Shown here piece by piece: positions 6,794 to 32,000 of a stretch of DNA of 32,000 bases. The DNA comes from Synechococcus elongatus PCC 6301 (GTDB lineage: Bacteria > Cyanobacteriota > Cyanobacteriia > Synechococcales > Synechococcaceae). The stretch spans positions 1,410,001 to 1,442,000 of the forward strand of contig NC_006576.1 in assembly GCF_000010065.1 (NCBI RefSeq), in the 5' to 3' direction. A model generated the notes under the pieces. That model ran no database searches. It was not told where the DNA came from and saw nothing but the letters and a program-made list of their open reading frames with translations. The translations under genes were made by a program, and so were the position numbers. Numbering within the stretch: the stretch's first letter is position 1; every line of letters begins with the position of its first letter.

Positions 6794-8245
6794 ATGACTA
6801 TCGCGAGCCCAGCCGGGTTTCGTCGTTTGCCTCCTTGGCTAGCACGACTGGCGGGCAGTTCAACGCTGAGTGAATCTCAACCTGATCATGCAGCTTGGGT
6901 CTGGCTGGGGGGCGCACTTGTCTGGATGATTCTGGGCATGTGCCTTGGCATGATCGCAGCGATCAAGCTGGCCTACCCCGATTTCTTGGGGGGTGCAGCT
7001 CCCCTCGGCTTTGGTCGAGTGCGCCCCGAACATGTCAACACCATTCTGTTTGGCTGGATTGTTGGTGGCGAAATTGGCGCAGCGCTCTACATCGTGCCGC
7101 GCGTCTGCCAGCGATCGCTCATCTTGGGTGAACTGGGTGCCCTGAGTGGCTGGGCCTATCACATCGCCGTTTTGCTGGGGCTCGTCAGCGTTAGCCTAGG
7201 CTGGACCAAAGGCGCAAAGTACGAGGAATGGGTGCGTGGCATCAACCTAGCGGTGGTGATCACGGTGAATCTCACAGCGCTCTGTTTGGTGCTCACGGCT
7301 TTCGAGCGGCGGGTTAGCGGCCTGTTTGTCAGCGTCTGGTACTTCTTTCTATTCGCGATCGCCTTTGACTTCATCTATATTCCCGCCAACCTCAGTCGTA
7401 ATGCCGGGGCCGAAGGCGCGGTCATCAACTGGTACTACGGCCACAATGCAGTCGGCTCCGTTATGACCGGAGCGGGCTTGGCGATCGCCTATTACGTTGT
7501 GCCACGGCTGCTGAATCGCCAACTGTTTGCCCACGGCATCGCTACCTTGAGCTTCTGGACCTTTGCCGGCTTCTACATCTGGAACGGCGGCCACCACTTA
7601 CTTTATGGTCCGGTACCGCGCTTCATCACGATGATGGGCTATTTCGCAGCCTTTGGTATGACACTGCCCTTTGTCCTGTCGACGGTGTCGCTCTGGGGCA
7701 CTATTTGGGGCCAGTGGCGCGCCATTTTGGACAGCATTGCCGTGCGCTTCGCGGTTCTTGCTGGCTCTGTCTACTTCTGGGCTTCAGCCTCGGGAGCCAT
7801 GCTGGCTTGGCACGAACTCACCGTGATTCAGCATTTCTCTGACAACACGATCGCCCACGTTCACCTCGCCTTCCTCGGCTTCACGACACCAGCCCTGAAT
7901 GCCCTGCTCTATCTGATGGTGGAACGGGGGATGCGCCGGCCACTGATCGCCGTCCTGCAGAAATTGCACTGGTGGATGTTTGTGATTGGCTGCGCGCTCT
8001 ACATCCTGCCGATCTACGGGGCCGCCTTTTTTGAAGGGGTGGGCTGGTTCCAGCAAGTGCCCTTTAGTGAAACCGTTGCCCTGCGCTACCCCTACTACTA
8101 CCTGCGGATGTACAGCGGTCTTTTCCTAATTGGCGGGCAGTTGGCGATGGTTTGGAACCTGATCTATGCCTGGCGATCGCCTGCATTAGAGGCAGTACCG
8201 GCAATCGACTCCCCAGTCTGGCTGGTTCCAGGAGAAGAAGCATGA
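6794..8245 (+). CDS. heme-copper oxidase subunit I, C-family (cbb3 CcoN-like)
   Basis: 483-aa polytopic ORF. cbb3-type contexts surround all six metal-ligand histidines: FGRVRPEH(80)VNTILFGW, WYYGH(217)NAVG, GGH(267)H(268)LLYGP, NTIAH(355)VH(357). Tyr261 (GFYIWNGGHH) lies six residues before the HH pair. Confidence 0.85.
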   Translation: MTIASPAGFRRLPPWLARLAGSSTLSESQPDHAAWVWLGGALVWMILGMCLGMIAAIKLAYPDFLGGAAPLGFGRVRPEHVNTILFGWIVGGEIGAALYIVPRVCQRSLILGELGALSGWAYHIAVLLGLVSVSLGWTKGAKYEEWVRGINLAVVITVNLTALCLVLTAFERRVSGLFVSVWYFFLFAIAFDFIYIPANLSRNAGAEGAVINWYYGHNAVGSVMTGAGLAIAYYVVPRLLNRQLFAHGIATLSFWTFAGFYIWNGGHHLLYGPVPRFITMMGYFAAFGMTLPFVLSTVSLWGTIWGQWRAILDSIAVRFAVLAGSVYFWASASGAMLAWHELTVIQHFSDNTIAHVHLAFLGFTTPALNALLYLMVERGMRRPLIAVLQKLHWWMFVIGCALYILPIYGAAFFEGVGWFQQVPFSETVALRYPYYYLRMYSGLFLIGGQLAMVWNLIYAWRSPALEAVPAIDSPVWLVPGEEA

Positions 8246-8994: not shown

Positions 8995-9531
8995 TTGATT
9001 TTGGACTTTCTCCTCAATCGGACCAATTTGCCCTACCCCGATCCACTCCATGCGATCGTGGTGCACTTTGTGATCGCGATGGTGATTATCTCGTTTCTGT
9101 TCGAGGTCATTGGGCTGATCAGCAAACGCCAAAGCCTGCTGAATGCAGGCTGGTGGAACCTGGTGGTGGCGGCGATCGCGATTTTCTTTGCCATTCTTTT
9201 TGGCCAATTTGAAATTGGTTTGGCCCAGCCTTCCCAAGCGGCTCAACCCACCATCAATCGCCATCTCGCTGTGGGCTGGTTGCTGCTGTTGCTGCTGCCC
9301 AACCTAGCCCTCTGGCAGGGCATTGAGCGATCGCGCGATCGCACCCGTATTTCCAAGGGTGTGCTGGCCTTCAAAGCGATCGTGGTCGTGCTGGTCTGCT
9401 ACCAGTTTTTACTGGGCACCACGATGTATTGGGTCTACGGAATCCACGTTGAGCCGGTGGCGACCGCCAGCCGTGCTGAACTGCCTGACGCCGGTGCTGG
9501 GCGTCCTAATCTGACTGGAGAGGTGCGCTGA
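8995..9531 (+). CDS. DUF2231-like integral membrane protein (about 4 TM, conserved His)
   Basis: 178-aa ORF with a TTG start directly abutting the preceding TGA. The first in-frame ATG would delete TM1, so a non-ATG start is likely. Signature YPDPLHAIVVHFVIA ... GWWNL ... INRHLAVGW. Paralogous to the next ORF. Confidence 0.7.
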   Translation: MILDFLLNRTNLPYPDPLHAIVVHFVIAMVIISFLFEVIGLISKRQSLLNAGWWNLVVAAIAIFFAILFGQFEIGLAQPSQAAQPTINRHLAVGWLLLLLLPNLALWQGIERSRDRTRISKGVLAFKAIVVVLVCYQFLLGTTMYWVYGIHVEPVATASRAELPDAGAGRPNLTGEVR

Positions 9532-10457
9532 TGATCCGGCCATTACTGGCGACGCAACCCGACTGGAGCAGCGGACTGGATCTGGGGCTAAATGGTCTAC
9601 CCTACGCGCTGCCGGTGCATCCCAATCTGGTGCACTTCACGATTGGACTGTTTGCGATCGCCCTGATCTTTGACCTGATTGCCACCAGTCACGGGCTCTT
9701 GCAGCCGATTTACAACCTGCTGCAGATTAAACCCGATCGCGCTGCCTACTACGACCTAGGCTGGTGGAACTTGCTGGCTGCTGCTCTGATCACCTTCGTG
9801 GCCGTGGCCTTCGGCTTCTTCGAAATGCTGCTGGCTGAACCGCCTGCCGGTGCCGTCAGTCCCTGGGGTTTACCGGCGCTGGAGACCATGTATCTGCACG
9901 GCGTCGGCGGTGTTTTTTCCCTGTTCATGATCGTGCTGCTGACCATCTGGCGAGGGCTAGAACGCTATCGTTGGCGAGCGAGGCTCCGCGCTCAAGTCAG
10001 TTTGCGCTACGGTGCTGTGGCCCTGCTGGTTTTAGGCTTCATCAGCATTCAGGCCGAAATGGGGGCACAGCTGGGCGGCACCTTCGGCCTGCACAATACA
10101 GCAGCGCTGCATATCAGCCAAAAACAGTCAGTAGCGACGCTGCAAACCCTGACAATTCCGCCCCGAACGGTTGGCCAAGCGCTCTCCAATCCACCGGCTA
10201 ACTACCCCTTGCCGCGCTGGGAATTCCAAGGCGATCGCCTTTACTACGGCATTCAATCAGTGCTGACCCTGCCAGCGGAGCTTGCCCAGCCTGAGCTGCT
10301 AACGCGGCTGAATGACCATGCGTGGTCGGCGGATGACTTCTCCCTCGTCGGAGATCAAATCTACCTGGGCGATCGCCCGCTCCTACCAGCGGGAACTACC
10401 GGCCAAGCTCAGCTCTATCGCCTCCAAGCCGCTCTCCTCTCGTCGAGTGACCCATGA
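9531..10457 (+). CDS. DUF2231-like integral membrane protein with a C-terminal soluble extension of about 110 aa
   Basis: 308-aa ORF whose ATG overlaps the preceding stop by 1 nt (TGATG). It carries the same signature as the previous ORF (LPVHPNLVHFTIGLFAIA ... GWWNL ... MYLHGVGG). The C-terminal region after about residue 195 is non-hydrophobic and unrecognised. Confidence 0.75.
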   Translation: MIRPLLATQPDWSSGLDLGLNGLPYALPVHPNLVHFTIGLFAIALIFDLIATSHGLLQPIYNLLQIKPDRAAYYDLGWWNLLAAALITFVAVAFGFFEMLLAEPPAGAVSPWGLPALETMYLHGVGGVFSLFMIVLLTIWRGLERYRWRARLRAQVSLRYGAVALLVLGFISIQAEMGAQLGGTFGLHNTAALHISQKQSVATLQTLTIPPRTVGQALSNPPANYPLPRWEFQGDRLYYGIQSVLTLPAELAQPELLTRLNDHAWSADDFSLVGDQIYLGDRPLLPAGTTGQAQLYRLQAALLSSSDP

Positions 10458-26471: not shown

Positions 26472-26723
26472 TTAATTGACGTAGAGCATCCGTGCCTGCT
26501 CAAACACCTGAGTCAGTTCAGCATCCGATAGCTGTAAGGCAGTCGGAGCAGCGGTTCGCAAATACTGGCGCAAGCGGGCAGCATCGAGAGGCGATCGCGT
26601 TCCGGTTTGGAGTGCAGCTTGGCTCAGAAAGGGATCAAAAAATTCTTCCTGAGCAGCGAGGACGCGAAACTTGAGGAATTCCAACAGTTTGGCTTTGAGG
26701 ATTGGTGCTGTGGTGCTCGACAT
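26472..26723 (-). CDS. small hypothetical protein (83 aa)
   Basis: Start chosen at ATG 26723 (MSSTTAPILKAK...), preceded by GGAGG and lying 14 nt downstream of the ggt stop. The longer track ORF (to 26792) would overlap ggt. No family recognised. Confidence 0.5.
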   Translation of the reverse strand: MSSTTAPILKAKLLEFLKFRVLAAQEEFFDPFLSQAALQTGTRSPLDAARLRQYLRTAAPTALQLSDAELTQVFEQARMLYVN

Positions 26724-26736
26724 CGACTGACCTCCA

Positions 26737-28263
26737 TCAACAGCAACCATAGACGCCCGATCGCCGTGGATCGCCCGCTCCACAAAATTCACCAGTCGCT
26801 GTCAGTCCCACGGCATGCACGCCGCCAAAGAACATGTTGGGAGTAGTCCAAGCGATCGCAGTTTCAGAGGGTTGACTTGCTGCTTCAATCCCCGCAGGGT
26901 CCCAGCCTGGCTCCCAGTTCAACACTCCAGCCTCCCAATGCAGCCGAGGAGCCGCGATCGCCTCAGCAAGTGCGTAGCCTTCGACCGCCCAGCGATGAAT
27001 CACCTGCAGAATGGCCGTGCGAATCCGGTTGGAGCCGCCGGAGCCAAGCACCAAATGCGGGCGATCGTCTTCGCCCCAAAGCAGGCTGGGCGACATCATC
27101 GAGCCGAGGCGTTGCCCCAGCGGCCAGCGATGAAAACCCAAAGGGTGCAGATCGGCTTCGCCCAGCATGTTGTTGAGCATGATGCCGGTGTCCGGCAGGA
27201 CATGACCGCAACCTTCGCCATTGGAACTGGTGAGGCTGGCAGCGTTGCCTTCGGCATCAATGACACTGATATGCGTGGTGCTGCCCAGCCGATTCAGCCA
27301 GCCGGCAGCGGCTTGCTCAAAAGCGGCACCTGTCAGAAATTGGCGATCGATGCCAGCTTGTTGCAGTGCGCCATCCAAAAAGTCGCGGCGAGCCCTATTG
27401 GTCAACCGCATCAGCTGTACAAGATCCTGCGGATGCTGCTGAGGATTGAGGTTGATTACAGACTGATTGAGGAGCGACAAGGCAAAGGCAATCAGCAGAC
27501 CACCACTGCTGGGTGGCGGATTGGTTAGCAGACGATAGTTGCCGAAGGGAATCGCGAGGGGCGATCGCACGGCGACGGGATACTGCTGCAAATCCGTCAG
27601 TTGCAAGTTGCCGCCGGCCGCGCAGTAATTGGCGATCGCAGGCAACAGTTCGTGTTCGTAGAAGGCCTGACCCTTGGGCGCAGCCAACTCTTCTAAAACG
27701 GCAGCTAAGTCAGTGTTTCTAAAGCGATCGCCCGATCGCAGCGGTTGACCCTGCGGCTGGTAGAGCGATCGCGCTTCTGGCGTTGCAGTCACGATCGGAT
27801 CCAGTAGCCGAAAGCAGTATTCACCAAAGGCATTGATTTCTACTCCTTCGCGGCCCAGAGCGATCGCCGGTTCCAAGACGACTGAGCGCGGCAGCCGTCC
27901 CAGTTCGGCCTGCACTCGCAGCAGCCCAGCCAAGAGTCCGGGTACGGCCACAGAGCCTAAACCGATATGAAACTCCTGAATCGCATCGCCAAAATCAACC
28001 CCAACGGGATAGAAATCCTGTGGTTCTGGCGATCGCTGACTGGGCGTCTGGCAAAAGAAGTCATAGAGGCGGGGGCTTTGGTGGGGCTGGGCTGCGAGCA
28101 GAAAGCCACCTCCAGCCGGGGAGGTCAGTAGAGGCTCGGTGATCCACGAAGCCGCCAGAGCTGCGATCGCGGCATCAAAAGCATTGCCTCCCGCTTCCAA
28201 GGCCACTAGCCCAGCCGCAACGGTCTGTGGATGTCCGGCGGCGATCGCCCCCCGCTTAGCCAT
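26737..28263 (-). CDS. ggt: gamma-glutamyltranspeptidase
   Basis: Start chosen at ATG 28263 (MAKRGAIAAGHPQTVAAGLVALEAGGNAFDAAIA); the track start at 28377 overlaps the upstream gene. Autoprocessing/nucleophile context LGSTTHISVIDAEGNAASLTSSNG. C-terminal GAGDPRRSG. Confidence 0.9.
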   Translation of the reverse strand: MAKRGAIAAGHPQTVAAGLVALEAGGNAFDAAIAALAASWITEPLLTSPAGGGFLLAAQPHQSPRLYDFFCQTPSQRSPEPQDFYPVGVDFGDAIQEFHIGLGSVAVPGLLAGLLRVQAELGRLPRSVVLEPAIALGREGVEINAFGEYCFRLLDPIVTATPEARSLYQPQGQPLRSGDRFRNTDLAAVLEELAAPKGQAFYEHELLPAIANYCAAGGNLQLTDLQQYPVAVRSPLAIPFGNYRLLTNPPPSSGGLLIAFALSLLNQSVINLNPQQHPQDLVQLMRLTNRARRDFLDGALQQAGIDRQFLTGAAFEQAAAGWLNRLGSTTHISVIDAEGNAASLTSSNGEGCGHVLPDTGIMLNNMLGEADLHPLGFHRWPLGQRLGSMMSPSLLWGEDDRPHLVLGSGGSNRIRTAILQVIHRWAVEGYALAEAIAAPRLHWEAGVLNWEPGWDPAGIEAASQPSETAIAWTTPNMFFGGVHAVGLTATGEFCGAGDPRRSGVYGCC

Positions 28264-28327: not shown

Positions 28328-29419
28328 TCAGGCCCAAATCGCACGCCCGAGACTGTAGAGCAACAGTGCCGAGCCAATCGCGATCGGCAGGGTAATCAGC
28401 CAAGTCCAGAGCAAGCGTCGGATTGTCTGGCGGTTGAGGGCTGTCTGGGTGGCGAGTGTGCTGCCAGCAATGCCCGCCGTCAGGACTTGCGTGGTGCTGA
28501 TCGGCAACCCCCAACGACTGGCCGTCAGGATTGTGGCAGTGGTTACCGCAGCAGAAGAGAGGGATTGGGCGGTGGTTAAGGGGCGATCGCCCATGGCTTC
28601 GCCGAGGGTGTGGGTGATCCGTTGCCAGCCAATCAGGGTACCGATCGCCAGACTGAGGGCAACGGTTACTTTGATACCGAGGGGTAAGTGGTGCTGCTCC
28701 AACGCAGTCGCAAAGCGATCGGGCAAGGCTGTCGCCAGAATCAAGAGCAGCAGTCCCATGCCCTTTTGCCCATCGTTGGTGCCGTGGCTGAAGCTCATGC
28801 CCGCGGTAGCCAGCAAGAGACTACTACGGGTTGGCCAAGTCAGGGTTGGCTCTGCCAAGGATTCCAGTTGGTCTAGGCTAGTTGGCAAGCGCGATCGCAC
28901 CAGACTCAGCAATCCGTAGGCCAGAGCAAAGCCCAGCAACGGCGAGAGTAGCAGCGCTTCTAGCGTGGCGGGGAGCGGTGGCACCGTCAAAGCCTGCCAA
29001 GTCCAGGACTGCTCACTCCACAGTTGCCCCCAGTGAACACCAATCAACGCCCCGATCAGGGTTTGTGAACTGGAGAGGGGAATGCCCCGCCACCACGTCA
29101 GCCAGTTCCAGGCGATCGCCACCAATAACAGCGCTGCCACGGCCCACCAGTCTGGGGTCTGCCCTGCCGTGGTTGGCGGTAAGAGCGCCACAATCCCAAA
29201 GGCGACTGCACCGGACGAGGCGATCGCCCCCACGAGATTCCAAAGGCTACTCCAAATCACGGCGGTAAAAGGCGTCAGTACGCGACTGTAGACCAGCGGC
29301 GCGATCGTGTTGGCGCTGTCGTGGAAGCCGTTGATCAGTTCAAACAGGAGGCAGAGCAACACCCCTAAGATCAGCCAACTGCGATCGCTACTGCCCAGTT
29401 CCAGTAAGGCCGCGATCAT
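28328..29419 (-). CDS. inorganic phosphate transporter, PiT (PHO4) family
   Basis: 363-aa polytopic ORF with the duplicated PiT signatures NGFHDSANTIAP and SHGTNDGQKGMG. Confidence 0.85.
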   Translation of the reverse strand: MIAALLELGSSDRSWLILGVLLCLLFELINGFHDSANTIAPLVYSRVLTPFTAVIWSSLWNLVGAIASSGAVAFGIVALLPPTTAGQTPDWWAVAALLLVAIAWNWLTWWRGIPLSSSQTLIGALIGVHWGQLWSEQSWTWQALTVPPLPATLEALLLSPLLGFALAYGLLSLVRSRLPTSLDQLESLAEPTLTWPTRSSLLLATAGMSFSHGTNDGQKGMGLLLLILATALPDRFATALEQHHLPLGIKVTVALSLAIGTLIGWQRITHTLGEAMGDRPLTTAQSLSSAAVTTATILTASRWGLPISTTQVLTAGIAGSTLATQTALNRQTIRRLLWTWLITLPIAIGSALLLYSLGRAIWA

Positions 29420-29805
29420 GAGCGAGGCGGCAAGGACTCGGAGACAGCGATCGGGTCACTAGGATGTGCAAGCCGTCGCCGCAACCGCTGCACCGTCACA
29501 CCTGCTTCGATCGCAGAGCCAAGACCTACGGCGATCCAACCTAAACTGGCAGTTTTGAGGGCAGCCCAGGCAAAATTGGTAGCGCGATCTTCAAAGCTCA
29601 CGGAAGGCGTTCTGGCCCATGCGATCGCCCCGGAGAGGCTGCCGCTCCCCAGTGCTGCCAAAAAAGCAATCAACGCACCCAGCCAGTAGGCTTTCCAGCG
29701 TCTTTGATAGACATAACCGCCGCCATTACAGGTCAGGTTAAATAAAACTGCAATCCAAATCGCAGTTTCAGCCAGCGATCGCTGGCGTTCTTGAGGAGTC
29801 AGCAT
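29416..29805 (-). CDS. hypothetical membrane protein (129 aa)
   Basis: ORF with three hydrophobic segments. 4-nt ATGA-type overlap with the PiT gene start implies co-translation. No family recognised. Confidence 0.55.
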   Translation of the reverse strand: MLTPQERQRSLAETAIWIAVLFNLTCNGGGYVYQRRWKAYWLGALIAFLAALGSGSLSGAIAWARTPSVSFEDRATNFAWAALKTASLGWIAVGLGSAIEAGVTVQRLRRRLAHPSDPIAVSESLPPRS

Positions 29806-30001: not shown

Positions 30002-30727
30002 ATGGCCTCCACAGATCAGCATTATGAACAACTGCTCGCGCCGATTTACGAATGGATGGCTGGTGGCGCTGAGGCAGCACTCACTGCTGGTGCTGCTGAC
30101 TTAGAGGGACTTTTGCACTCGCCGGGGCTCTGTTTGGATTTGGGTGCGGGCTTTGGCATGCATGCGATTCCACTCGCACAAGCAGGCTTTGAGGTGATCG
30201 CGATCGATTCTTCGGCGCAGCTCTTGGCGCGGTTACAGGAGTTAGCGGGTTCTCTGCCGATTCAGTCGGTTTGTGCTGATTTGCTGGACTTTCCTGAGCA
30301 TCTGCCGGCAGGCCGCAAGCCAAGCCTGATCGTCTGCATGGGCGACACCTTAACTCACCTCGATAGTCTTGAGGCAGTCGATCGCTTAGCGAGTCTGGCC
30401 GCTGAACATCTCGCACCGGGTGGGCGTTTTCTGGCGACATTCCGCGATTATTCGCAGCCACTTCAGGGCGATCGCCGCTTTATTCCGGTGCGATCGGATC
30501 AGTCTCGAATCCTCACCTGCTTTCTGGAAGAACAAGGCGATCGCATCTGTGTGCATGACATCCTCCATGAACGGCAGGGCGATCAATGGACGATGCAAGT
30601 CAATCACTATCTGCAGCTGCGGCTAGCACCCGAAACAGTTCGCCAGATTTTTGTAGATAAGGGCTTCATGACGCAGATAGAGGCAGCACCGAGAGGTATG
30701 CTGCGCCTAATTAGCGATCGCCATTGA
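30002..30727 (+). CDS. class I SAM-dependent methyltransferase
   Basis: 241-aa ORF. Motif I CLDLGAGFGMHAIPLAQAGFEVIAIDSS and post-I/II spacing typical of Rossmann-fold methyltransferases. It is GC-rich and contains HIP1 sites, so it belongs to the native chromosome. Confidence 0.8.
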   Translation: MASTDQHYEQLLAPIYEWMAGGAEAALTAGAADLEGLLHSPGLCLDLGAGFGMHAIPLAQAGFEVIAIDSSAQLLARLQELAGSLPIQSVCADLLDFPEHLPAGRKPSLIVCMGDTLTHLDSLEAVDRLASLAAEHLAPGGRFLATFRDYSQPLQGDRRFIPVRSDQSRILTCFLEEQGDRICVHDILHERQGDQWTMQVNHYLQLRLAPETVRQIFVDKGFMTQIEAAPRGMLRLISDRH

Positions 30728-31006
30728 AGTGATGACAGTATAATCGTATATTTATTAAATTAAGTAAGGAGTTTTCAGCGCTTCATTTACATGGATTTCA
30801 CTACACCCTCCAAGAAATTGGAAGACATCTTCTGAAAGATTGCACCCAATCAATATCTCTTGCCTAAATGTTAACAAATAGTTTGGTGGTCTAATGACCT
30901 TCATCAGCAACAGCTAACTTAATGTAAGAATTTTGTAATCACGCAATACATTAAGATAATTCTGAGACAAGCTTCATCACAGCATTTTGCCCTTATACTG
31001 GAGAAG

Positions 31007-31012
31007 TATAAT
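31007..31012 (+). promoter_or_regulatory. candidate -10 box (TATAAT) for the ATPase gene
   Basis: Perfect TATAAT 79 nt upstream of the ATG. There is no convincing -35: TTGCCC at 30987..30992 is only 14 nt away. AT-rich DNA produces such hexamers by chance. Confidence 0.25.
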
Positions 31013-31077
31013 ATGTAGATTCTTGATTTACGGCAATAGACTGCCAACTCATGATCAAGAAGTTAAACTAAGGCTTT

Positions 31078-31082
31078 AGGAG
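31078..31082 (+). promoter_or_regulatory. Shine-Dalgarno sequence AGGAG
   Basis: AGGAG lies 8 nt upstream of the ATG at 31091. Confidence 0.6.
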
Positions 31083-31090
31083 TCGAGAAA

Positions 31091-32000
31091 ATGAAAATTA
31101 AGCGAATTTCTGTATATGGTTTATTTGGAGTTTTTGATCACACAATTTCCTTAAACACTAATCAAAGAATTACTATTATTCATGGTCCTAATGGCTTTGG
31201 AAAAACAGCAGTATTAAGACTATTAAACAGCTTTTTTAATTCTCGATATTCCGAGTTAAGATCAATTTCATTTAATAAATTCAAGGTAGAGTTAAATGAT
31301 GATACAGTTATTGAAGTTGCAAGAGAAATAAAAGACTTTCACGAGTCAGGAAGAGTTGATATAACTTTTTATTTATACAAACCTAACATCGAGAGAAAAT
31401 CCTTCTCTTTAGGTCAGGTTAAATATTCTCCCGATATAGGTTTTCCTATTGGTATCCTAGATGAAGTAGTGCCAGGTCTGGAAAGAATAGATACCAGAAA
31501 GTGGATGTATCTTCCCACCGATGAGGTTTTATCTTTAGAAGAAGTTGTTGAGCGTTTTGGAGACTCATTACCTGACTCTTTATCTGCAAATTTAAGGGGA
31601 TCTTATTCAAAAGAAGAACCTGTGTGGTTGAAGGACATAAAAAATGCTATTCACATTCGCCTCATTGAATCGCAGCGACTACTTAATCTCGTTCCTAGTC
31701 GTTCTTCCAGAACATATCGTGGAACACCTTTAATGCTATCTACTGTCTCCGCTTATTCGGATGAACTTGCAAAGCTCATGCAAGATAAATTCAAGGAATA
31801 TGGCACAACATCGCAATCTCTTGACAGAACATTTCCATTGAGAGTGGTAAAGCAACAGCCATCTTCGGACGTATCAGATGAGCAGCTTCGCAACCAGTTG
31901 GATGAGCTTGAGTCAACTCGTTCTCGTCTCATAGAGGTAGGACTACTAGATAAAGAAGAAGATTCAGAATTTCAAATTCAACCTCAAGATATTGATGAGA
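31091..32000 (+). CDS. SMC/RecF-like ABC-type ATPase, N-terminal 303 aa only (runs off the right edge)
   Basis: I translated this by hand and found no stop from ATG 31091 to 32000, which is why it is missing from the ORF track. The sequence begins MKIKRISVYGLFGVFDHTISLNTNQRITIIHGPNGFGKTAVLRLLNSFF. That is a beta-strand lead-in plus Walker A GPNGFGKT (31184..31207), typical of RecF/SMC/Rad50-type ABC ATPases. A candidate Q-loop is at IRLIESQRL. It is followed by a charged, helical-looking stretch (DELAKLMQDKFKEY ... SDEQLRNQLDELESTRSRLIEVGLL). Confidence 0.75.
   Translation, partial: MKIKRISVYGLFGVFDHTISLNTNQRITIIHGPNGFGKTAVLRLLNSFFNSRYSELRSISFNKFKVELNDDTVIEVAREIKDFHESGRVDITFYLYKPNIERKSFSLGQVKYSPDIGFPIGILDEVVPGLERIDTRKWMYLPTDEVLSLEEVVERFGDSLPDSLSANLRGSYSKEEPVWLKDIKNAIHIRLIESQRLLNLVPSRSSRTYRGTPLMLSTVSAYSDELAKLMQDKFKEYGTTSQSLDRTFPLRVVKQQPSSDVSDEQLRNQLDELESTRSRLIEVGLLDKEEDSEFQIQPQDIDE

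What the first reader, a model, noticed from the sequence alone, without database searches (positions are those of the whole stretch)
31091..32000. Unassigned SMC/RecF-like ABC ATPase with a long insertion after the Walker A lobe
Seen in sequence: the N-terminus (KRISVYGLFGVFDHTISL..RITIIHGPNGFGKT) is the canonical strand-loop-Walker A start of RecF/SMC/Rad50-like ABC ATPases. About 150 residues of non-canonical sequence follow, for example VPGLERIDTRKWMYLPTDEVLSLEEVVERFGD. Next comes a possible Q-loop (IESQRL), then a charged heptad-like stretch that continues off the window.

Established knowledge: this architecture class is shared by ATPases of Gabija, Septu, PARIS, Lamassu, Wadjet, OLD-family and ABC three-component conflict systems.

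Inference: I cannot place this sequence in any of those families by eye. The insertion between Walker A and the Q-loop looks unusual, so it may define a new variant.
Basis: partly seen in the sequence, partly recalled or inferred. Interest (0 to 1): 0.7.

Follow-up and report, generated by a model that had tools for sequence, protein, structure and literature searches.

The report
PARIS anti-phage system ATPase (AriA)
The open reading frame at the window's end is the first two-thirds of AriA, the sensor ATPase of an ordinary two-gene PARIS anti-phage system whose nuclease partner AriB lies just past the window, on a small horizontally acquired islet of the Synechococcus elongatus chromosome.

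Summary
An intact ORF starts at 31091 with a ribosome-binding site, a Walker A motif, an invariant Q-loop glutamine and a helical stretch, and it runs off the window.

It is not an unassigned ATPase.
- The window is Synechococcus elongatus (4 mismatches in 10,910 nt to PCC 7942). The full protein is 457 aa.
- A 290-aa DUF4435 gene follows it with a 4-bp overlap.
- The pair meets the published PARIS detection rule (AAA_15 75 bits, AAA_21 59.5 bits, DUF4435 60 bits).
- PADLOC gives AriA as the best match for the ATPase. AriB is the only match for the partner.
- The best solved structures, by sequence and by predicted fold, are E. coli AriA and AriB.
- The "unusual insertion" and the "heptad stretch" sit where AriA's known insertion sequences IS1 and IS2 and its short coiled coil lie. 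Catalytic residues of both proteins are intact.
- The two genes form a 3-kb islet of 35% GC in a 56% GC chromosome. The same pair recurs elsewhere with different neighbours: in two other cyanobacterial genomes (and, with ariB interrupted, in a third) and in a P2-like Yersinia phage.

Most likely mechanism, inferred from E. coli PARIS: AriA holds AriB inactive, a phage protein triggers release, and AriB cleaves host tRNAs and aborts the infection.

This is a new member of a known kind, in a clade far from the studied E. coli system. Interest is low.

The parts
30728..31090 (.). AT-rich intergenic region (34% GC). It is the left edge of the low-GC islet and the presumed promoter region of ariAB.
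   Evidence: GC falls from 55% in the methyltransferase gene that ends at 30727 to 34% here. A sigma-70-like site, TTGTAA-16-GATAAT, lies at about 30933-30960. The number of such sites does not exceed the shuffled expectation (14 against 11.1 +/- 3.4), so no promoter is demonstrated.
31078..31082 (+). Shine-Dalgarno-like AGGAG, 8 nt upstream of the ariA start codon.
   Evidence: Read directly from the sequence.
31091..32000 (+). ariA, codons 1-303 of 457 (PARIS sensor ABC ATPase). The gene continues 464 nt past the window end.
   Evidence: Translation. 100% identity to the 457-aa P0001 of S. elongatus. AAA_15 75.3 bits and AAA_21 59.5 bits. PADLOC AriA 7.5e-25 and 3.1e-21. PDB AriA 1.8e-12 by sequence and 6.5e-16 by profile. 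Foldseek top 15 hits are all AriA chains.
31184..31207 (+). Walker A / P-loop GPNGFGKT (residues 32-39). K38 is equivalent to E. coli AriA K39.
   Evidence: Motif position. HMMER alignment ihgpngfgkt / ihgkngagks. K39 is required for trigger binding in E. coli (PMC11464382). H31 and N34-T39 are invariant in 39 homologs; G32 and P33 are nearly invariant.
31418..31651 (+). IS1-like insertion in the N-terminal ATPase lobe (about residues 110-187).
   Evidence: The AF2 model shows helix 120-126, three short strands at 130-148, then three helices at 149-159, 162-168 and 178-186 before the Q-loop strand. E. coli AriA IS1 is residues 122-180, three helices, predicted to recognise the trigger. This region does not align with E. 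coli AriA (domain scores -1.4 and -3.1). It is conserved within the cyanobacterial clade (W138, Y140 and F156 invariant).
31664..31681 (+). Probable Q-loop IESQRL (residues 192-197).
   Evidence: E193 to N199 are invariant in 39 homologs. The motif ends strand 188-193 just before the coiled coil. The assignment is by position, as in Rad50/SMC (established knowledge).
31742..32000 (+). Start of the short coiled coil / helical bundle, including the IS2-equivalent region (residues 218-303 in the window; the bundle ends near residue 344).
   Evidence: AF2 helices 218-236, 263-283 and 303-344, with low-confidence linkers at 237-256 and 292-298. E. coli AriA has a truncated coiled coil forming a four-helix bundle, with IS2 at residues 242-289.

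Best explanation
The ORF is the 5' two-thirds of ariA, the sensor ABC ATPase of a two-gene PARIS (phage anti-restriction-induced system) locus. The locus sits on a roughly 3-kb horizontally acquired low-GC islet in the Synechococcus elongatus chromosome. The effector gene ariB (a DUF4435/TOPRIM nuclease, 290 aa) follows just beyond the window with a 4-bp GTGA start/stop overlap.

Shown here:
- gene pair and architecture
- family assignment by profile and by fold
- intact ATPase and TOPRIM catalytic motifs
- mobility of the two-gene cassette

Inferred from the E. coli B185 system: AriA oligomerises through its ATPase heads and short coiled coils into a scaffold that holds AriB monomers inactive. 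A phage-encoded protein binds AriA in an ATP-dependent way (an anti-restriction DNA mimic such as Ocr in E. coli; unknown for cyanophages). AriB is released, dimerises and cleaves specific host tRNAs in the anticodon stem-loop. Translation stops and the infection aborts.
For: **Identity and context**
- 100% identity over 303 aa to a 457-aa S. elongatus protein seen on 286 contigs.
- In CP000100.1 the next gene overlaps by 4 bp and is a 290-aa DUF4435 protein.

**Published rule**
- The PARIS rule is an adjacent pair with AAA_15 >= 32 or AAA_21 >= 27 bits, plus DUF4435 >= 27 bits (PMC9122126).
- Scores here are 75.3, 59.5 and 60.0 bits.

**Profiles**
- PADLOC best model for the ATPase is AriA (7.5e-25). 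The full-length AriA model gives 3.1e-21 over residues 1-442.
- The partner matches only AriB (8.8e-25).

**Solved structures**
- The best PDB sequence matches are AriA entries 8ux9 and 8v45 (1.8e-12 by sequence, 6.5e-16 by profile). The next best is an OLD nuclease at 2.8e-7.
- The AF2 AriA model gives the top 15 Foldseek hits all as AriA chains (3e-12 to 1.5e-9), ahead of retron ATPases, Rad50 and PtuA.
- The AF2 AriB model (pLDDT 82) has E. coli AriB chains 8ux9_A and 8v46_D as its top two Foldseek hits (3.7e-4 and 3.4e-3, probability 1.00 for both). All other hits have E >= 0.14.

**Motifs**
- AriA: K38, Q195, LSSGEQ 376-381, D403/E404 (E. coli D392/E393) and H437 are all invariant.
- AriB: D33, D82, D84 and E107 are invariant and E29 is nearly invariant (at least 90%). 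They follow the order of E. coli E26, D30, D88, E90, E122.

**Mobility**
- ariA, ariB and both flanking intergenic regions have 33-36% GC (gene GC3 28%), against 55-61% GC in the neighbouring genes.
- The same overlapping pair occurs in Nostoc and Adonisia with unrelated flanks.
- It also occurs between CI and integrase in a P2-like Yersinia phage, at 30% and 28% identity.
- Both proteins match phage families over nearly their full length.

**Precedent**
- Deep et al. already include Nostoc and Caldora AriB sequences in their AriB alignment.
Against: - There is no functional test of this locus or of any member of its clade.
- Similarity to the characterised E. coli proteins is remote: 16-19% identity in the structural alignments and TM-scores of 0.40-0.58.
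- The AriA model is mediocre (pLDDT 70), and the insertion and coiled-coil regions often fall below 50.
- A sequence profile of the cyanobacterial AriB clade does not detect E. coli AriB in the PDB. AriB membership therefore rests on the DUF4435 and PADLOC HMMs and on fold.
- The AriA residues that form salt bridges with AriB in E. coli (D401, E404) are G412 and I415 here. The presumed equivalents of AriB R28 and R31 are S31 and K34.
- The i/i+4 aromatic ladder of E. coli IS2 (F230, F234, F238) is not evident. The A6B3 assembly is therefore assumed, not shown.
- PtuA (Septu) models score about as well as AriA models on the C-terminal ATPase lobe. The ATPase alone would not discriminate; the DUF4435 partner does.
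- No trigger is known in cyanophages.
Confidence: 0.85

Rival explanations
1. It is a PARIS-like but mechanistically distinct ATPase+TOPRIM two-gene system. It would be comparable to AbiL, RloAB or the unnamed Nostoc system that Deep et al. call structurally distinct from PARIS, with a different oligomeric state, trigger logic or nucleic-acid target.
For: - Identity to E. coli AriA and AriB is only 16-19%, with moderate TM-scores.
- The cyanobacterial AriB profile does not reach E. coli AriB by sequence.
- The published AriA-AriB salt-bridge residues are not conserved.
- Deep et al. note that other ATPase+TOPRIM systems, including one from Nostoc, are structurally distinct.
Against: - AriB is the only PADLOC family the partner hits. 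No AbiLii or other TOPRIM model appears.
- AbiLi is not among the top ATPase hits.
- The best fold matches of both proteins are AriA and AriB specifically, over the full length.
- The protein lengths match (457 and 290 aa here, 464 aa for E. coli AriA; its AriB chains are 305-306 residues as modelled).
- IS1 and IS2 fall at matching positions.
- PARIS comprises 11 divergent clades whose sensor residues are poorly conserved and whose AriA and AriB co-evolve. Interface divergence is therefore expected within the family.
Confidence: 0.1
2. It is a housekeeping DNA-repair or chromosome-maintenance ABC ATPase (RecF, RecN, SbcC or SMC-like), and the downstream gene is unrelated.
For: Weak N-terminal matches to SMC_N (25.7 bits against a cut-off of 40) and to RecF (15 bits against 172). 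Rad50 structures appear in the fold search.
Against: - No housekeeping model comes near its cut-off.
- The gene lies on a 35% GC islet in a 56% GC genome.
- It is translationally coupled to a DUF4435 nuclease.
- The pair moves between unrelated genomic contexts and occurs in a phage.
- Rad50 hits are 4-5 orders of magnitude weaker than AriA hits.
Confidence: 0.01
3. It is a decaying or silent remnant of a PARIS cassette that no longer functions in S. elongatus.
For: - The codon usage is foreign (GC3 28%).
- No promoter is demonstrated.
- In Chroococcidiopsis the ariB homolog is interrupted by a 1.5-kb insertion, which shows that such cassettes do decay.
Against: - Both ORFs are full length, with every catalytic motif intact and the overlapping start/stop preserved.
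- Exactly the same protein sequences are seen on about 290-330 contigs from S. elongatus assemblies.
Confidence: 0.04

Closest known systems
PARIS (AriA/AriB) of E. coli B185 P4-like satellite (Rousset 2022; Burman 2024; Deep 2024; PDB 8ux9, 8v45-8v49)
   Same: - Two-gene ATPase-then-DUF4435 order.
- Nearly identical AriA length (457 against 464 aa); AriB is 290 aa, and the E. coli AriB chains are 305-306 residues as modelled.
- Walker A, signature, Walker B and H-loop motifs aligned.
- Rad50-like head with a truncated coiled coil and two insertions at matching positions.
- TOPRIM acidic residues in the same order.
- Best PDB match for both proteins.
- Location on mobile DNA.
   Different: - Only 16-19% identity.
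- The IS1 region is unalignable. It is predicted to contain short strands plus three helices, and carries a clade-specific conserved KWxYLP motif.
- The AriA-AriB salt-bridge residues (E. coli AriA D401/E404 and AriB R28/R31) are replaced.
- The second TOPRIM motif is DxD rather than DxE.
- The host is a cyanobacterium, the cassette is a bare chromosomal islet rather than a satellite hotspot, and the trigger and tRNA targets are unknown.
PARIS-type pair in Yersinia phage vB_YenM_31.17 (Peduoviridae, P2-like), OM140653.1 genes 005/004
   Same: The closest relative in annotated phages. The ATPase is 29.8% identical over 99% of the query. The partner is 28% identical (E 9e-29), with VEGxSD, DxDFD and HDxE motifs aligned. 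Start and stop overlap in the same way, and AriB is the only PADLOC hit for the partner.
   Different: It is phage-borne, between the CI repressor and integrase genes. The ATPase is shorter (423 aa). The genes are annotated only as "ATPase" and "hypothetical protein".
OLD-family nucleases (class 1 P2 Old / Ts OLD 6p74; class 2 Gabija GajA)
   Same: An ABC ATPase of the AAA_15/21 type combined with a TOPRIM nuclease. PARIS is classed as OLD class 4 (PMC11464382). Ts OLD is the next-best PDB sequence match after AriA.
   Different: - Here the ATPase and TOPRIM are separate polypeptides.
- The TOPRIM is of the DUF4435 type; there is no Toprim_Old hit.
- No UvrD-like GajB gene is nearby.
Septu / retron-associated PtuA ATPases
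   Same: The C-terminal ATPase lobe scores similarly against PtuA models (2.8e-23). PtuA and retron ATPase structures follow AriA in the fold search.
   Different: The partner here is a DUF4435/TOPRIM protein, not the HNH nuclease PtuB. There is no reverse transcriptase or ncRNA nearby. NCBIfam PtuA scores 29.6 bits against a cut-off of 500.

Membership tests
PARIS (AriA/AriB) | Adjacent gene pair: ATPase scoring AAA_15 >= 32 bits or AAA_21 >= 27 bits, plus DUF4435 >= 27 bits (detection rule of Rousset et al. 2022). | tested here: met
   AAA_15 75.3 bits, AAA_21 59.5 bits, DUF4435 60.0 bits. The genes are adjacent and overlap by 4 bp. The rule is quoted.
PARIS (AriA/AriB) | AriA is an active ABC ATPase: Walker A lysine (E. 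coli K39), Walker B D-E (D392/E393), signature motif and H-loop. | tested here: met
   K38, LSSGEQ 376-381, D403/E404 and H437 are all invariant in 39 homologs and aligned to the E. coli residues by HMMER.
PARIS (AriA/AriB) | AriA architecture: Rad50-like head split by a truncated coiled coil or helical bundle, with IS1 (about 122-180) and IS2 (about 242-289). | tested here: met
   The AF2 model has three helices at 149-186 before the Q-loop strand, and helices 218-236, 263-283 and 303-344. Foldseek top 15 hits are all AriA. Caveat: pLDDT is 70 overall and below 50 in the linkers, and Foldseek does not return residue-level equivalence.
PARIS (AriA/AriB) | AriB is a DUF4435 protein with a TOPRIM two-metal site (E. 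coli E26, D30, D88, E90, E122). | tested here: met
   DUF4435 3.9e-16. PADLOC AriB 8.8e-25 as the only hit. D33, D82, D84 and E107 are invariant and E29 is nearly invariant. E-x3-D and D-x-[DE] spacing is preserved. The E107 to E122 equivalence is inferred from order only.
PARIS (AriA/AriB) | AriB fold matches solved AriB. | tested here: met
   AF2 model pLDDT 82. The AriB chains 8ux9_A (3.7e-4) and 8v46_D (3.4e-3) are the top two Foldseek hits, both at probability 1.00, TM 0.45-0.52, aligned over 328-338 columns. All other hits have E >= 0.14.
PARIS (AriA/AriB) | AriA hexamer sequesters AriB monomers at the head-head interface (A6B3). In E. coli the contact uses AriA D401/E404 and AriB R28/R31. 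| tested here: inconclusive
   The specific salt-bridge residues are not conserved: G412 and I415 in AriA by HMMER alignment, and S31 and K34 in AriB by register. AriA and AriB co-evolve by clade, so a different contact is plausible. Assembly cannot be tested with these tools.
PARIS (AriA/AriB) | Phage-protein trigger releases AriB, which cleaves host tRNA and aborts infection. | not testable with these tools
   This needs phage challenge, toxicity and tRNA-cleavage assays. The mechanism is taken from PMC11464382 and PMC12409363.
OLD class 1 / Gabija GajA | ATPase and Toprim_Old fused in one polypeptide; for Gabija, an adjacent UvrD-like helicase GajB. | tested here: not met
   There are two separate genes. 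Pfam gives no Toprim_Old hit. No helicase is nearby. GajA models match only the N-terminal ~80 residues, or at most 6e-11.
Septu (PtuAB) | PtuA ATPase with an adjacent HNH nuclease PtuB. | tested here: not met
   The partner is DUF4435 and hits only AriB. NCBIfam PtuA scores 29.6 bits against a cut-off of 500.
AbiL | AbiLi ATPase plus AbiLii TOPRIM partner. | tested here: not met
   No AbiLi model is among the 25 best PADLOC hits of the ATPase, and the partner gives no AbiLii hit at E <= 0.001.
RecF / RecN / SbcC / SMC housekeeping ATPases | Full-length match above the curated cut-off, in a conserved housekeeping context. | tested here: not met
   RecF TIGR00611 scores 15 bits against 172. SMC_N scores 25.7 bits against 40, N-terminus only. 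No other housekeeping equivalog is approached. The gene lies on a foreign-GC islet.

The most novel reading that the evidence does not exclude
The cyanobacterial clade could be a functionally divergent PARIS. Its IS1 is strongly conserved within the clade and does not align with E. coli AriA (GLERIDxxKWxYLPTxExLSLEEV). Its AriA-AriB docking residues are replaced. It might therefore sense a different class of cyanophage protein than Ocr-like DNA mimics, and might assemble differently or cut a different tRNA set. Because it sits in the genetically tractable model S. elongatus PCC 7942, this could be tested in the native host.
Probability: 0.3. Interest if true: 0.4.

Novelty: new member of a known kind. 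Interest (0 to 1): 0.15.

Why it matters
The practical value is modest. The locus tells users of the model cyanobacterium S. elongatus (PCC 7942 and near-identical strains) that the chromosome carries an apparently intact abortive-infection system. RefSeq labels the two genes only "AAA family ATPase" and "DUF4435 domain-containing protein". This could affect cyanophage host-range experiments and the expression of foreign, highly acidic or DNA-mimic proteins. The locus also offers a divergent PARIS clade for comparing trigger recognition. It does not reveal a new kind of system.

Tried and rejected
1. **Fragment-only scans.** Pfam, PADLOC and NCBIfam scans of the 303-aa fragment gave only generic P-loop hits. 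The assignment needed the full-length protein and its neighbour.
2. **Coordinates.** My first scan used coordinates off by one base and failed.
3. **AriB against PDB sequences.** Neither the AriB sequence nor the AriB profile found E. coli AriB. The link is by HMM families and fold only.
4. **Fetching an E. coli-type PARIS locus.** I used the E. coli AriA N-terminus against the phage collection, to align AriB residue by residue, and found no match. The AriB catalytic-residue equivalence therefore rests on motif order and spacing.
5. **Empty site.** I looked for a relative lacking the islet, using the upstream methyltransferase as an anchor in genome contigs. The 80 loci kept (47-59% identity) were Proteobacteria, Acidobacteriota and other non-cyanobacterial lineages, none cyanobacterial, so the scan was uninformative.
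6. **Islet borders.** There are no convincing flanking direct or inverted repeats, tRNA genes or integrase. Promoter- and terminator-like sites are not above the shuffled expectation.
7. **NCBIfam.** No AriA or AriB model is reached.
8. **Literature.** No paper in the searchable library names this locus. One preprint ran DefenseFinder on this very assembly, but the supplement text held here does not list S. elongatus rows.
9. **Families considered and rejected.** RecF/SMC housekeeping, OLD class 1, Gabija, Septu, AbiL and Lamassu/Wadjet (LmuB matched the N-terminus only, at 28.9 bits, with no partner genes).
Full report
**Observation.** Window 31091-32000 (+) is an open frame of 303 codons that starts at an ATG preceded by AGGAG (31078-31082) and runs off the window. 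It contains IESQRL at residues 192-197 and ends in a helical, charged stretch. On its own the fragment matches only generic P-loop families. AAA_23 scores just above its cut-off, and AAA_15, SMC_N and the others score below theirs. It also gives short N-terminal hits to many defence ATPases, with AriA the best of them. It approaches no housekeeping model: RecF scores 15 bits against a cut-off of 172.

**Full-length protein and neighbour.** The fragment is 100% identical to a 457-aa "AAA family ATPase" of Synechococcus elongatus seen on 286 contigs. The window differs from the PCC 7942 chromosome (CP000100.1) at 4 of 10,910 overlapping bases. The missing C-terminus carries the signature motif LSSGEQ (376-381), Walker B LVLIDEPE (399-406) and the H-loop ATHSP (435-439). 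The protein is therefore a compact ABC ATPase with a short helical insert, not a long SMC. Immediately downstream, overlapping by 4 bp (GTGA), is a 290-aa DUF4435 protein.

**Family assignment.** PARIS was defined and detected as an adjacent pair scoring AAA_15 >= 32 or AAA_21 >= 27 bits, plus DUF4435 >= 27 bits (Rousset et al. 2022, PMC9122126). This pair scores 75.3, 59.5 and 60.0 bits.

- In PADLOC the best model for the ATPase is AriA (7.5e-25). A second AriA model aligns end to end over residues 1-442 at 3.1e-21.
- PtuA models score similarly on the C-terminal lobe, so the ATPase alone is not decisive. The partner, however, matches AriB (8.8e-25) and nothing else.
- Against PDB sequences the best matches are AriA entries 8ux9 and 8v45-8v49: 1.8e-12 with the single sequence and 6.5e-16 with a 39-sequence profile. 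The next best, an OLD nuclease, is at 2.8e-7.
- An AlphaFold2 model of the ATPase (pLDDT 70) returns AriA chains as its top 15 Foldseek hits (3e-12 to 1.5e-9), ahead of retron ATPases, Rad50 and PtuA.
- A model of the partner (pLDDT 82) has the two E. coli AriB chains as its top Foldseek hits (3.7e-4 and 3.4e-3, both at probability 1.00), aligned over the full length; every other hit has E >= 0.14.

**The "unusual insertion".** Burman et al. (PMC11464382) describe two insertion sequences that distinguish AriA from Rad50. IS1 (residues 122-180) is three helices near the nucleotide-binding domain and is predicted to recognise the trigger. IS2 (residues 242-289) adds two helices to the coiled coil and enables hexamer assembly.

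- In the model here, residues ~110-187 comprise helix 120-126, three short strands and then three helices (149-159, 162-168, 178-186) just before strand 188-193 and the invariant Q195.
- Helices 218-236, 263-283 and 303-344 follow, with low-confidence linkers.
- Positions and total lengths match the E. coli protein: 457 against 464 aa, and 366 against 354 residues from the Walker A lysine to the Walker B glutamate.
- The IS1 region does not align between this protein and E. coli AriA. That agrees with the published finding that trigger-facing residues are poorly conserved among the 11 PARIS clades.
- Within the cyanobacterial clade the region is well conserved (W138, Y140 and F156 invariant).

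**Catalytic competence.**
- AriA K38 aligns with E. coli K39, which is needed for trigger binding. D403/E404 align with D392/E393, which are needed for hydrolysis and defence. All are invariant.
- In AriB, D33, D82, D84 and E107 are invariant and E29 is nearly invariant (at least 90%) among 38 homologs.
- These residues reproduce the order of the E. coli metal ligands E26, D30, D88, E90 and E122. For the first two pairs they also reproduce the spacing.
- I could not obtain the E. coli AriB sequence for a residue-level alignment. This mapping is by motif register.

**Context and mobility.**
- ariA (35.7% GC, GC3 27.9%), ariB (35.3%, GC3 28.2%) and both flanking intergenic regions (33-34%) form an islet of about 3.06 kb (window 30728 to about 33787).
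- It lies between genes of 55-61% GC in a window averaging 55.9%.
- No tRNA, integrase or convincing terminal repeats mark its borders.
- The same overlapping pair occurs in Nostoc sp. TCL26-01 and Adonisia turfae with unrelated neighbours.
- In Chroococcidiopsis cubana it lies about 2 kb from BREX genes, and ariB is interrupted by an insertion.
- About twenty AriA and AriB homologs share contigs of identical length.
- A P2-like Yersinia phage carries a homologous pair between its CI repressor and integrase genes, at 30% and 28% identity, with AriB as the only PADLOC hit for the partner.
- Both proteins match phage protein families over nearly their full length (phrog_7507 at 9.9e-56, phrog_20954 at 1.4e-33).
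- All of this fits the known lifestyle of PARIS as a mobile, often phage- or satellite-borne cassette.

**Likely mechanism (inferred).** By analogy with E. coli B185 PARIS:
1. AriA assembles through head-head and coiled-coil interfaces into a hexamer that sequesters AriB monomers.
2. A phage protein binds AriA in an ATP-dependent way. In E. coli this is Ocr or another acidic anti-restriction protein.
3. AriB is released, dimerises and cleaves host tRNAs. In E. coli these are tRNA-Lys(UUU) and tRNA-Thr(UGU), with tRNA-Asn(GUU) as a secondary target; tRNA-Lys is cut between positions 40 and 41.
4. Translation stops.

Only the parts list and the intact motifs are shown here. Assembly, trigger and target are not.

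**Differences worth recording.**
- The E. coli AriA residues D401 and E404, which form salt bridges with AriB R28 and R31, correspond to G412 and I415 here. The AriB equivalents would be S31 and K34.
- The F230/F234/F238 aromatic ladder of IS2 is not evident.
- Because AriA and AriB co-evolve clade by clade, this probably means a re-wired interface rather than a different system. It leaves about 10% for a mechanistically distinct PARIS-like system.

**Novelty and verdict.** PARIS is a well-characterised family. Cyanobacterial AriB sequences already appear in published alignments, and a preprint has run DefenseFinder on this very assembly. No searchable paper describes this locus, and RefSeq names are generic. 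It is a new, uncharacterised member of a known kind, from a clade remote from the studied one. The "defence-type ABC ATPase with downstream effector" expectation is borne out. The suggestion that it is unassignable or a new variant is not. Interest is low (0.15).

Noticed in passing
L006:7359-9731 (Chroococcidiopsis cubana SAG 39.79, JAVKZF010000001.1): The ariB homolog is split into an N-terminal piece (7359-7661; residues 1-97, 69% identity) and a C-terminal piece (9177-9731; residues 109-288, 66% identity). The ~1.5-kb insertion between them carries a reverse-strand 435-aa ORF with no Pfam hit. The locus lies about 2 kb from BrxA and BrxL (BREX) genes, so this is a PARIS cassette decaying inside a defence neighbourhood.
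   Followed up: partly
window 30002-30727 (+): The SAM-dependent methyltransferase just upstream of the islet has its nearest relatives in the genome collection (47-59% identity) in Proteobacteria, Acidobacteriota and other non-cyanobacterial lineages. None of the 80 loci kept is cyanobacterial. This may reflect older horizontal acquisition or a sampling limit of the scan.
   Followed up: no
L002:12698-13051 (-), about 1.8 kb past the window end: A 116-aa tRNA_bind (PF01588) protein gene lies directly after the islet on the opposite strand. It has intermediate GC (49%). The placement is probably a coincidence of insertion site, but it is worth noting because AriB is a tRNase.
   Followed up: no
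ariA residues 411-416 (off window; L002:11231-11248) and ariB residues 29-34 (L002:11455-11472): The E. coli AriA-AriB salt-bridge residues (AriA D401/E404, AriB R28/R31) correspond to G412/I415 and S31/K34 in this clade. This suggests a re-wired docking interface (the AriB mapping is by register).
   Followed up: partly
window 29416-29805 (-) and 26472-26792 (-): Two small ORFs have no family assignment: a 129-aa ORF overlapping the PHO4-family transporter gene by 4 bp (no Pfam hit), and an 83-aa called gene (L001/L002:5382-5633, no Pfam hit on record) that lies within the 106-aa ORF listed at 26472-26792.
   Followed up: no
window 1-32000: No Rfam family reaches its gathering score and there are no tRNA or tmRNA genes anywhere in the 32-kb window.
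   Followed up: yes
L007:3501-5650 (Yersinia phage vB_YenM_31.17, OM140653.1): A PARIS-type pair is annotated only as "ATPase" and "hypothetical protein". It sits between the CI repressor and integrase genes of a P2-like phage, so it is an unannotated defence cargo.
   Followed up: partly
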